This document shows, piece after piece, positions 27,001-30,000 of a stretch of 64,000 nucleotides of DNA; the stretch's first letter is position 1; every line of letters starts with the position of its first letter. This DNA is from Escherichia coli (GTDB lineage: Bacteria > Pseudomonadota > Gammaproteobacteria > Enterobacterales > Enterobacteriaceae). The stretch is taken from NCBI RefSeq assembly GCF_050320075.1, contig NZ_CP190018.1, one strand, 5' to 3'. The position numbers are program-made.

Positions 27001-30000
27001 CTCGGGTCAGCTACCGAAAACAGTGGGCGCGCTGGCGGGTGATGATTCTGCCGGTATTGCTGATTCTGGTTGCGCTGGCAGTGGAACGGGGCGTGACGTT
27101 ATGGAGCATCAGCGAACAGGTGGCGCAAAGCCGCACCCAGGCGGAAAAAAAGTTCTTAACACTGTTCCCGGAGCAGAAGCGGATTGTGAATTTGCGTTCC
27201 CAGGTGACGATGGCGCTGAAAAAATATCGCCCGCAGGCCGACGATACCCGGCTGCTCGCAGAATTGTCAGCGATCGCCAGTACCCTGAAAACGGCGTCAC
27301 TTTCCGACATCGAAATGCGTGGTTTCACCTTTGATCAAAAACGCCAGACTCTTCACCTCCAGCTGCGGGCCGCGAACTTTGCCAGCTTCGACAAACTGCG
27401 TAGCGCACTGGCAACCGATTATGTTGTGCAACAGGACGCATTACAGAAAGAGGGTGATGCGGTTTCCGGCGGCGTAACGTTGCGGAGGAAATAACATGTT
27501 ACGCGATAAATTTATTCACTATTTTCAGCAATGGCGTGAACGCCAGTTAAGCCGTGGCGAACACTGGCTGGCACAACACCTGGTGGGGCGTTCGCCGCGT
27601 GAAAAGGGCATGTTACTGGCAGCGGTGGTGTTCCTGTTTAGCGCCGGATATTACGTCCTCATCTGGCAGCCTTTGAGCGAACGGATAGAACAACAGGAGA
27701 CGATGTTGCAGCAGCTGGTGGCGATGAACACCCGACTGAAGAACGCCGCGCCGGATATTATTGCAGCGCGAAAATCTGCCACAACAACGCCTGCGCAGGT
27801 ATCGCGGGTCATCAGTGACAGTGCTTCCGCGCACTCGGTGGTCATCAAGCGGATAGCCGAGCGTGGGGAGAATATTCAAGTCTGGATAGATCCGGTGGTG
27901 TTTAATGACCTGCTGAACTGGTTAAAAGCACTGGATGAAAAATATGCGCTGCGGGTGACACAAATTGATGTCAGTGCTGCTGAGAAGACTGGGATGGTGA
28001 ATGTGCAGCGGCTGGAGTTTGGGCGGGGGTAGGTATTAAAAACTATAAACATTAGTGATATTAAACGTATTATCAAGATTCATTAGCTATTACTTTAACC
28101 TTGATATGTTCCTTATTATATTAAAGTCAGAGTAAGTTGCATATATAAATGAATTATGAACCTACTGAGTAAATTTTTATAGATGTGATTAATAAAGGAA
28201 TATCGATAACCGATTAATATTACAACAATTTGATGAGGCTTACATGTCAAAAAGAATCAACAAATAATTATATCAGAAAAAGTTATATTATCTTATTGAA
28301 GGCCTCTTTAAAGAGGCCTTGCGTGGGCGAAGCGTTCTATGTAACAGTACATGCAACTGGGGTAACTTTTCTTTAAAGGGTATTTTTTCGAACGTGTATT
28401 AGGAAAAGTATTTACATAGAGTGATATTCAGGTTGTAATAAGTTACCTTTGTTACAGTTACGTGGTGTGTGTTTTGTGGTGGATTGTTGGCCTCCTGATT
28501 ATCGTTGTTGTGTTTGTTATCTTAGTGGTCAGGTCTCGTATGCAGGATATGGATGATGATTATTGATAAAAATGTTATCATAAAATTTATAGAGGTATTA
28601 TATTGAATAAGTAAAATATAATGTTGTATTGAACTTTTTACTATTTTTATTGTAAAAAGACCCGCTTTAATTTTATGCATTTTTGAGAGTCTGACCAAAT
28701 AATGGTGTTTTCAATATTCCTCTAGCGTCATATTGTTCAGTGATTTATGCGGGTGTTCACAGTTGTATTCTAGCAACCATTTTCCCTTGATTCCCCACAC
28801 TTCATTCAGTATTCTGGGCAGATGAAAATTGAGTGTTTCTGTACGGGATGTCCGGTTAAAACACTCAATGAAAGCGTACTGCGTCAGCTTACTTGGTTGG
28901 ATAAACATGCAGTAAAACTGGAGTTTATCCAGTTACAAAAAAAATAATGCGCATTATTAATAACACGCATTAAATATAGATTAATTCTTTAATTCTTTAA
29001 TTCTTTAATTCTTTAATTCTTTAATTCTTTAATTAATTCGCTATAACTTTTATAAATAATATCTAAAACCCTAATTAAATCATTTTTATACCTCAGGTTA
29101 TCAGGTTTTATAGAATATGCCTTTTTTAAGTATAGCTCAGAGGTTTTGTAGTCCTTAACTTTTTCAAAAATTAACCCTATATGATGGTATGCTGGAGCAT
29201 AATTTGGATCTTCGTTGATACAGCACTTATAATTATTGATGGCTTCATCAAATTTATTCACATGATTCAATGCTATTCCAAGTTCAAAATATGTATCGCG
29301 GTTTTTCGCTATTTTTACAGATCTTGTTAAAAACGGTAAGGCTGCTGCTGGTTTTTTTTGTCGAGTTAAAGCCATGCCATAATATAAATTATATAGTGGG
29401 TTTGTTATATTATTGTGTTTTACAGAATCAAGAACTTCAATGGCTTGGTCGTACTTTCTGTTTCTGATTAGTACATAGGCATTATAAATTTCATGTATGT
29501 TGTACTTTGAAAAATAATCTTTTCCTGAATATTCGCAATGAAATATCTTTGTTGCTTCGTTATCATTCTTTATCACAGTTTCAATAAATTTATCAATTTT
29601 AATAAAGTTCTCATGAATACTTTTTGTTACATTATGACCAGTGTTTTTTATTATTATGATGTGGATATTTTCTAATGTATATGGCAGTAACGATGCATTA
29701 TATAGATCGATTATGTCAAGCTCACCTGAAAATATATAAAACGTTGTGTCGGTGGCATTAGAAAACAAATTTGTTAAATCATGATATTTAACTTTAATGT
29801 CTTCGGGCATATGTAATTTACTTCGGCTAAAAGGGAGTTGTAAAACATATTCTGCCCCGAAACAAATTACATGTTTTGCTTTATTTTTAATTCCATATAA
29901 CGCTGCTCCCGTTCCTCCCATTGAACTACCAATATATATTGTATTTTTTTTCTTAGTAATGGATTTTATTGCGTCAACGCTATCTTCTAATGAAGAACCC

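What the first reader, a model, noticed from the sequence alone, without database searches (positions are those of the whole stretch)
28979..29035. Six tandem 9-bp units, each encoding K-N-stop, forming the 3' end of the hydrolase-TPR gene
The coding strand reads (AAGAATTAA)n, so the gene ends at the first unit and is followed by in-frame repeated stops. Slippage would not change the protein, but the repeat could mark a recombination or slipped-strand hotspot, and it sits next to a palindrome plus T-tract terminator candidate (28934-28960).
Basis: seen in the sequence. Interest (0 to 1): 0.35.

Follow-up and report, generated by a model that had tools for sequence, protein, structure and literature searches.

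The report
Silent variable 8-bp repeat after capsule operon
A perfect 8-base (not 9-base) tandem repeat sits across the stop codon of the last gene of an E. coli capsule operon; its copy number changes quickly between near-identical strains but cannot alter the protein, so it is an ordinary slippage-prone repeat, useful at most as a strain-typing marker.

Summary
There is a perfect tandem repeat at 28981-29034, but its unit is 8 bp (AGAATTAA on the coding strand), 6.75 copies, not six 9-bp "K-N-stop" units. The last gene of a kpsM-kpsT-glycosyltransferase-TPR capsule operon runs 22 bp into the array and stops at 29015-29013. TAA recurs every 8 bp, so every frame on both strands is closed.

The locus occurs in 22 of 5,426 complete E. 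coli genomes. The array there has 4, 5, 6, 8 or 10 full units, always perfect, with conserved flanks and the same annotated protein in 18 of them. Two genomes differ by nothing but 6 versus 4 units across about 31 kb. It is therefore a real, hypermutable repeat, not an artefact.

The protein tail is constant for two or more units. A terminator-like hairpin with a T8 tail, 8 nt downstream, is predicted to fold equally well at any copy number. Homologues at 31-44% identity lack the repeat but align through the tail, so the array probably grew out of native AT-rich tail codons.

The same octamer array occurs sporadically in 36 unrelated genomes. The locus matches catalogue type K111 by gene lengths and domains.

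Verdict: an ordinary, probably neutral repeat in a 3' untranslated region. Interest is low.

The parts
28981..29034 (-). Perfect octanucleotide tandem array, (AGAATTAA)n on the coding strand: a 6-bp partial unit followed by 6 full units, 6.75 copies in all. TAA recurs every 8 bp, so there are stops in all three frames on both strands.
   Evidence: Searches give the exact period-8 run. One search shows it is far beyond chance. One search shows 4, 5, 6, 8 and 10 units in other genomes.
29013..30179 (-). Last gene of the capsule operon, 388 aa. The N-terminal part has a weak alpha/beta-hydrolase signal with a conserved GxSxG motif; the C-terminal part is TPR. The stop codon is at 29015-29013, inside the array, and the final residues (I)KELKN are encoded by repeat DNA.
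   Evidence: ORF; Pfam TPR_1 at 3e-13; Hydrolase_4 and Abhydrolase_1 below threshold; invariant S86-M-G-G, D155/D158, H182 across homologues; annotated as a tetratricopeptide repeat protein.
28973..28980 (-). 8-nt unique spacer (TCTATATT on the coding strand) between the array and the hairpin.
28945..28972 (-). Terminator-like hairpin: 12 pairs, a 4-nt loop, only 3 G-C pairs, -11.0 kcal/mol.
   Evidence: scan; MFE and centroid structures; stem pair probability 0.96 at every copy number tested.
28937..28944 (-). T8 tract immediately 3' of the hairpin (U-tail). It is T7 in strain ST648.
   Evidence: (single-base deletion at 28937 in L068).
30184..33453 (-). 1089-aa multidomain glycosyltransferase (GT4-like, Capsule_synth/KpsC-like and GT29-like domains). 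It forms a conserved gene pair with the TPR gene.
   Evidence: the pair is conserved in homologous capsule clusters; matches K111_9 in length and domain layout.
33529..34206 (-). kpsT-like ABC transporter ATPase.
34203..34982 (-). kpsM-like ABC-2 permease, first gene of the transcription unit that ends at the repeat.
   Evidence: NF050053 KpsM, 2.8e-51, below the curated cut-off; annotated coordinates.
35014..35021 (-). ops element GGCGGTAG, 32 nt upstream of the kpsM start codon. It marks the operon as probably RfaH-dependent.
   Evidence: The motif alone is not above chance in the window; its position and strand are what fit.
28711..28908 (-). IS remnant (C-terminal integrase-core fragment) just downstream of the terminator. 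It marks the edge of the acquired AT-rich cassette.
   Evidence: rve_3, 1.5e-11; annotation.

Best explanation
This is a hypermutable but phenotypically silent simple-sequence repeat (a variable-number tandem repeat, VNTR) that straddles the stop codon and 3' untranslated region of the last gene of a group 2 capsule operon (kpsM-kpsT-glycosyltransferase-TPR).

Shown:
- The unit is a perfect 8-mer.
- Copy number changes in whole-unit steps (4, 5, 6, 8, 10) between genomes that are otherwise identical or nearly identical around it.
- The gene enters the array in a fixed phase and stops at the third TAA, so the protein is the same for any copy number of two or more.
- Only the distance from the stop codon to the terminator-like hairpin changes (24-72 nt in the observed alleles).
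- Predicted folding of the hairpin is unaffected by copy number.

Inferred:
- The changes arise by slipped-strand mispairing during replication, perhaps helped by the self-complementary AATT/TTAA cores of the unit.
- The array was seeded by the native AT-rich tail codons E-L-I-K-E-L (AATTAAAGAATTAA already holds 1.75 units). Its expansion brought a TAA into frame and clipped the tail 3-10 residues short of the homologues.
- Copy number is selectively neutral or nearly so.
For: - Period, extent and frames.
- Chance expectation: (54 bp observed, 23 bp maximum in simulations).
- Copy number in 22 complete genomes: 6 units in 9 genomes, 8 in 6, 5 in 4, 4 in 2 and 10 in 1. All arrays are perfect with the same immediate flanks. 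Four further assemblies or metagenome contigs carry 5 units.
- Flanks: 17 of 22 genomes are identical to the window over 2,447 bp yet carry all five alleles.
- Over the 19.2-kb shared segment, 8 sequences differ at only 8 sites but need at least 4 copy-number changes. L067 and L072 have zero other differences over about 31 kb but carry 6 and 4 units. L068, L070 and L073 share one background but carry 6, 8 and 10 units.
- The same protein accession, WP_024946591.1, is annotated in 18 of the 22 genomes and with all five alleles. The tail is invariant for n>=2 and the hairpin pair probability is 0.96 for n=0-20.
- A terminator-like hairpin with a T8 tail lies 8 nt after the array.
- Homologues at 31-44% identity align through the tail (ELIKELKN against AEIKDLESSPQNVF, SEEIETMLLTQS, RIQELTTLSSQA) and have no repeat at their 3' ends.
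- The same octamer array occurs in 36 unrelated genomes, mostly intergenic and never spanned by an ORF. This fits a sequence-intrinsic tendency to expand rather than a capsule-specific function.
Against: - Neutrality is inferred, not measured. No expression or RNA 3'-end data were available.
- No allele below 4 units was seen among the 27 sequences counted. That could reflect a lower limit on the stop-to-hairpin distance (24 nt or more) or simply the small sample.
- The hairpin is weak (3 G-C pairs of 12), so it is not certain that it is the functional terminator.
- Recurrence of the identical octamer in distant taxa could in principle reflect an unrecognised function.
- I have no whole-genome tree, so the minimum of 4 slippage events comes from local haplotypes only.
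Confidence: 0.85

Rival explanations
1. The array is a regulatory length polymorphism in the 3' untranslated region. Its copy number would tune capsule operon output by changing the stop-to-terminator spacing, mRNA decay at AU-rich single-stranded RNase E or Hfq sites, or the production of a small RNA derived from the 3' UTR.
For: The array lies between the stop codon and a terminator-like hairpin, and it changes that distance from 24 to 72 nt. The RNA is AU-rich and predicted to be largely unstructured. No allele below 4 units was observed.
Against: Predicted hairpin formation is identical for 0-20 units. Even the shortest observed allele leaves 24 nt, more than a terminating ribosome covers (established knowledge). 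Alleles vary between otherwise identical loci with no visible pattern. The homologous gene pairs have no such array and are followed directly by kdsA. There is no direct evidence for any RNA-level effect.
Confidence: 0.07
2. The array is a phase-variable contingency locus: slippage of a repeat whose unit is not a multiple of three switches a gene on or off, as with the neuO heptad repeat in E. coli K1.
For: The unit length (8) is not a multiple of 3, the array is hypermutable, and it touches a capsule gene that may modify the polymer.
Against: TAA occurs in every frame on both strands, so no ORF can cross the array. The gene enters from the fixed side and its product is identical for all alleles. 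No ORF or promoter-like site is positioned so that array length could matter. At 38-86 bp the array is too long to be a -35/-10 spacer.
Confidence: 0.02
3. The array is a sequencing or assembly artefact, so its copy number would not be a property of the genomes.
For: One short-read contig (L028) breaks inside the array. Several contigs in other taxa also end in such arrays.
Against: 22 independent complete genomes from many laboratories carry it. The alleles differ by exact multiples of 8 bp, with perfect units and the same immediate flanks, and the same alleles recur (9, 6, 4 and 2 genomes). The array is at most 86 bp, shorter than typical reads.
Confidence: 0.01
4. The array is a set of binding sites for a DNA-binding protein, or a structural DNA element marking the edge of the horizontally acquired capsule cassette (for example a nucleoid-protein nucleation site or a recombination site).
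For: It lies near the AT-rich cassette boundary, next to an IS remnant. The identical octamer recurs in other genomes.
Against: The 8-bp period is out of phase with the DNA helix. No known motif was recognised. Copy number is unconstrained between 4 and 10. The detectable recombination breakpoint is about 4.3 kb away, near 24653, not at the array. Arrays in other taxa sit in unrelated contexts.
Confidence: 0.04

Closest known systems
Bacterial VNTR / simple-sequence repeat loci of the kind used for MLVA typing of E. coli (from my own knowledge of the field)
   Same: Perfect head-to-tail short units, whole-unit copy-number polymorphism between close relatives and conserved flanks. Slipped-strand mispairing is the accepted mechanism for such loci.
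   Different: This locus is restricted to one capsule type (22 of 5,426 complete genomes), has an unusual 8-bp unit and straddles a stop codon. No paper in the searched library contains the repeat sequence.
neuO heptanucleotide repeat of E. coli K1, which drives phase-variable capsule O-acetylation (recalled from the literature, not tested here)
   Same: A hypermutable repeat whose unit is not a multiple of 3, located in an accessory gene associated with a group 2 capsule.
   Different: The neuO repeat lies in the 5' coding region and switches the reading frame on and off. Here the repeat is at the extreme 3' end, carries stops in all frames and leaves the protein unchanged.
Identical (AGAATTAA)n arrays in other bacteria (Photorhabdus, Colwellia, Pseudomonas mandelii, Prevotella, Clostridium and others)
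   Same: The same unit, 4-20 copies, never spanned by an ORF.
   Different: The genomic contexts are unrelated and mostly intergenic, with no link to capsule genes. This indicates independent origin rather than homology.
E. coli group 2A capsule locus type K111 in the in-silico K-type catalogue (PMC13171606)
   Same: There are ten genes, with genes 9 and 10 of 1089 aa (GT-B plus GT29-like domains) and 388 aa (TPR at 294-361). These are the lengths and domain positions found here. The rearranged kpsM/T position is described in that paper as common.
   Different: I matched lengths and domains only, not sequence. The paper does not mention the repeat.

Membership tests
VNTR / simple-sequence repeat prone to slipped-strand mispairing | Head-to-tail copies of a short unit with high identity | tested here: met
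   54 bp with an exact period of 8, 100% matches.
VNTR / simple-sequence repeat prone to slipped-strand mispairing | Copy number differs in whole-unit steps between closely related genomes while the flanks are conserved | tested here: met
   4, 5, 6, 8 and 10 units. 17 of 22 genomes have identical 2.4-kb flanks. L067 and L072 differ only by 2 units across about 31 kb.
VNTR / simple-sequence repeat prone to slipped-strand mispairing | Elevated mutation rate measured directly (fluctuation assay, or heterogeneity within a culture) | not testable with these tools
   Only inferred from at least 4 copy-number changes against 8 point changes in 19.2 kb.
Phase-variable contingency locus (repeat-mediated on/off switching) | Unit length is not a multiple of three (or the repeat lies in a promoter spacer) | tested here: met
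   The unit is 8 bp.
Phase-variable contingency locus (repeat-mediated on/off switching) | A change in copy number alters the reading frame or expression of a gene | tested here: not met
   Stops occur in all six frames. The protein tail is constant for n>=2, and one protein accession occurs with all five alleles.
Intrinsic (Rho-independent) terminator | Stable stem-loop immediately followed by a U-tract on the transcribed strand, downstream of the last gene | tested here: met
   12-pair stem, 4-nt loop, T8 tail, -11.0 kcal/mol, pair probability 0.96. The stem has only 3 G-C pairs.
Intrinsic (Rho-independent) terminator | Transcripts actually end there | not testable with these tools
   This needs 3'RACE or Term-seq.
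E. coli group 2 (2A) kps capsule locus, catalogue type K111 | Conserved kpsFEDUCS and kpsMT genes at the gsp/yghD-side chromosomal site, with an ops element upstream of kpsM | tested here: met
   Pfam and NCBIfam hits and RefSeq annotation; ops at 35014-35021.
E. coli group 2 (2A) kps capsule locus, catalogue type K111 | Serotype-specific genes identical to the K111 reference (K111_9, K111_10) | tested here: inconclusive
   Lengths (1089 and 388 aa) and domain coordinates match the paper's supplementary table. The reference sequence itself was not compared.

The most novel reading that the evidence does not exclude
The array could be a selected, tunable 3'-UTR element: a six-frame translational stop block and spacer at the end of an RfaH-driven capsule operon. 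Its length would set mRNA stability or the yield of a 3'-UTR-derived RNA, giving heritable but rapidly reversible fine-tuning of capsule expression without touching any protein. The recurrence of the same octamer in distant bacteria would then reflect a shared function.
Probability: 0.04. Interest if true: 0.45.

Novelty: new member of a known kind. Interest (0 to 1): 0.13.

Why it matters
It matters little for biology. The array is a clean example of a hypermutable repeat made harmless by its position and by carrying a stop codon in every frame. It also shows how AT-rich tail codons can seed a repeat that then redefines a gene's stop codon.

In practice it is the fastest-changing site in an otherwise almost invariant 19-kb capsule locus found on several E. 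coli backgrounds, including a strain named ST648. It could therefore serve as a fine-scale typing marker for strains carrying this capsule type. It is also a place where short-read assemblies can break. It should not be mistaken for a phase-variation switch.

Tried and rejected
- **9-bp unit.** Rejected: a period-9 run is only 10 bp long.
- **Phase variation.** Rejected by the frame analysis and the invariant protein.
- **Effect on terminator folding.** None is predicted for 0-20 units.
- **Promoter role.** The scan found no promoter-like site flanking the array, and the number of sites in the region was below the shuffle expectation.
- **GT29 protein accessions as haplotype markers.** Abandoned: L067 and L072 have identical DNA but different accessions, because the annotated start differs (3270 against 3213 nt).
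- **Intermediate stages of repeat birth.** The next-closest protein is only 44-45% identical, so none were available.
- **Structure-database search with the TPR protein.** It returned only generic TPR matches and nothing for the N-terminal domain.
- **Literature search for the repeat sequence.** Nothing found. One paper search failed on a syntax error.
- **Metagenome scan.** It added only two contigs, both with 5 units.

Full report
**The observation**

The window holds a perfect tandem repeat at 28981-29034. Tandem Repeats Finder and an exact periodicity test both give a period of 8: TTAATTCT on the + strand and AGAATTAA on the - strand, 54 bp, 6.75 copies, 100% matches. In 300 first-order Markov simulations of the surrounding 7.3-kb AT-rich region, the longest perfect periodic run averaged 19.2 bp with a maximum of 23. 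The array is therefore real and far beyond chance, but it was mis-measured.

**Anatomy**

The coding strand is the - strand. A 388-aa ORF (29013-30179) reads ...SELIKELKN* and ends at 29015-29013, which is the end of the second full unit counted from the gene side. TAA recurs every 8 bp, so it cycles through all three frames. The + strand unit also contains TAA, so all six frames are closed and nothing can be translated across the array. In the gene's own frame a second stop follows 24 nt later.

After the array come three features on the coding strand:
- an 8-nt spacer at 28980-28973;
- a hairpin at 28972-28945, with 12 pairs, a 4-nt loop and -11.0 kcal/mol;
- a T8 tract at 28944-28937.

**Context**

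Upstream on the same strand lie:
- a 1089-aa multidomain glycosyltransferase (GT4-like, Capsule_synth and GT29-like domains);
- a kpsT-like ATPase and a kpsM-like permease;
- an ops element (GGCGGTAG, 35014-35021), 32 nt before the kpsM start codon;
- kpsS, C, U, D, E and F further on.

The + strand to the left carries sslE, pppA and gspC through gspM/yghD. An IS integrase fragment (28711-28908) lies just beyond the hairpin. The array is thus at the very 3' end of a kpsM-kpsT-GT-TPR transcription unit in an AT-rich cassette (about 29-34% G+C over 28001-35000).

The gene order and the two serotype-specific genes match type K111 (group 2A) in the recent in-silico K-type catalogue. K111_9 is 1089 aa with GT-B and GT29-like domains, and K111_10 is 388 aa with TPR at 294-361 (PMC13171606). 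I did not compare the reference sequence itself.

**Comparison between isolates**

Megablast finds the locus in 22 of 5,426 complete E. coli genomes. I fetched all 22 and counted units.

| Full units | Genomes |
|---|---|
| 4 | 2 |
| 5 | 4 |
| 6 | 9 |
| 8 | 6 |
| 10 | 1 |

Every array is perfect and has the same immediate flanks. Two more assemblies and two metagenome contigs carry 5 units. One short-read contig ends inside the array.

Over 2,447 bp of flanking sequence, 17 of the 22 genomes are identical to the window, yet they carry all five alleles. The other five genomes hold nine small changes in total.

I then aligned 32-kb loci from seven genomes with the window. The segment from 24654 to 43900 (gspJ to kpsF, 19.2 kb) differs at only 8 sites among 8 sequences. 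To the left of 24653 there are at least four sequence backgrounds that differ by hundreds of sites per 11.7 kb. The capsule locus therefore sits in several lineages.

Copy number also differs within a single background:
- L068, L070 and L073 carry 6, 8 and 10 units.
- L067 and L072 have no other difference over about 31 kb but carry 6 and 4 units.

At least four copy-number changes are needed among these eight sequences, against eight point changes in 19.2 kb. That is roughly two orders of magnitude more change per base. The array is a real, hypermutable VNTR and not an assembly artefact.

**Consequences of slippage**

The gene enters the array from its fixed, upstream side. Simulated alleles therefore all give the tail ...SELIKELKN for two or more units. 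One unit gives ...ELIKELIYI. RefSeq annotates the same protein, WP_024946591.1, in 18 of the 22 genomes and with all five alleles; the other four carry point changes elsewhere in the gene.

Only the stop-to-hairpin distance changes. It equals (n-2)x8+8 nt, which is 24 to 72 nt for the observed alleles. The predicted probability of the hairpin stem is 0.96 for every n from 0 to 20. No ORF or promoter-like site is placed so that array length could matter.

The repeat closes every frame within 24 nt, rather than each unit encoding K-N-stop.

**Origin**

A search of 5.8 billion proteins found the identical protein and then nothing closer than 44-45% identity. The full-length homologues are 390-400 aa. 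They align to the very end: ELIKELKN lies opposite AEIKDLESSPQNVF, SEEIETMLLTQS and RIQELTTLSSQA, and the E. coli protein is 3-10 residues shorter.

In three homologous loci the same large-glycosyltransferase and TPR gene pair sits inside a kps-like cluster. It is followed 11-12 bp later by a kdsA-like gene (DAHP_synth_1), with no repeat.

I infer that the native tail codons, in AT-rich usage (AATTAAAGAATTAA, already 1.75 units), seeded the array. Expansion then brought a TAA into frame and replaced the last few residues.

**Is the octamer special?**

A scan of one genome from each of about 100,000 species for four consecutive units found 36 loci in very diverse taxa. These include three Photorhabdus species, Colwellia (20 copies), Pseudomonas mandelii, Clostridium and several Prevotella. 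The arrays have 4-20 copies, are mostly intergenic and are never spanned by an ORF. The octamer is therefore a recurrent, independently arising simple repeat and not a capsule-specific element. No paper in the searched library contains the sequence.

**Interpretation**

The best explanation (confidence about 0.85) is a slippage-prone VNTR that is silent at the protein level and probably neutral.

The main rival is that the length of the 3' untranslated region tunes mRNA fate. It cannot be excluded without experiments, but nothing supports it beyond the position of the array and the absence of alleles below four units in a small sample. Phase variation in the manner of the neuO heptad repeat fails its defining test. 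An artefact is excluded.

**Verdict**

This is a real feature that was partly mis-described. It is an ordinary kind of element and a new instance of it. Interest is low; its practical value is as a fine-scale marker within strains that carry this capsule type.

Noticed in passing
window 55211-56130: A large tandem array of a 36-bp unit, 25.6 copies at 91% identity. Each unit contains the palindrome GTTGCCAGTGGCAAC. It lies in an integrative conjugative element near genes annotated as 'STY4528 family pathogenicity island replication protein' and 'PFL_4669 family ICE protein'. That placement suggests iteron-like binding sites. The matched span differs among genomes (about 2.6-3.1 kb for a 3.1-kb query). 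In this region the window is 100% identical to strain YZLc1-3 (NZ_CP123240.1).
   Followed up: partly
window ~24653 (gspI/gspJ): There is a sharp change in divergence here. To the left (sslE to gspI), genomes carrying this capsule locus fall into at least four sequence backgrounds, most differing by 300-770 sites per 11.7 kb. To the right, 19.2 kb (gspJ to kpsF) is almost identical in all of them. This fits horizontal spread of the capsule locus together with gspJ-M into several lineages.
   Followed up: partly
window 29013-43372: The capsule genes are all on one strand, in the order kpsFEDUCS, kpsM, kpsT and then two serotype-specific genes. This is not the classical group 2 layout, in which the serotype genes lie between kpsS and kpsT. 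It matches catalogue type K111 (PMC13171606) by gene lengths and domains.
   Followed up: partly
window 28937-28944; L068: The T8 tract of the terminator candidate is T7 in strain ST648 (NZ_CP008697.1). This is either a homopolymer polymorphism or a sequencing error in an older assembly.
   Followed up: no
window 30184-33453; L010, L012, L014, L021, L022: RefSeq annotates the large glycosyltransferase gene with different lengths: 3270, 3213 and 3069 nt, and an 855-nt piece in FDAARGOS_536. At least one difference (3270 against 3213 nt) is a start-site choice on identical DNA. The shorter ones may be real disruptions of the gene.
   Followed up: partly
L030, L056, L059 (Photorhabdus spp.); L060 (Colwellia); L045 (Pseudomonas mandelii): Long (AGAATTAA)n arrays of 11-20 copies occur in unrelated genomes, including three Photorhabdus species. 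I did not examine whether the Photorhabdus sites are homologous to one another.
   Followed up: no
window 28033-28710: About 680 bp of AT-rich sequence with no convincing ORF lies between yghD and the IS fragment. It is probably a remnant of the acquired cassette or of the IS element.
   Followed up: no
window 11707-11823: Imperfect 30-, 18- and 12-bp repeats (Tandem Repeats Finder) lie near the 5' end of the 1528-aa ORF, which related genomes annotate as the lipoprotein metalloprotease SslE.
   Followed up: no
window 29016-30179 (protein): The N-terminal half of the TPR protein keeps an invariant GxSxG-type motif (G-S-S-M-G-G) plus invariant Asp and His residues across homologues. It may therefore be an active serine esterase or acyltransferase, possibly a capsule-modifying enzyme. 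Pfam hydrolase hits are below threshold.
   Followed up: partly
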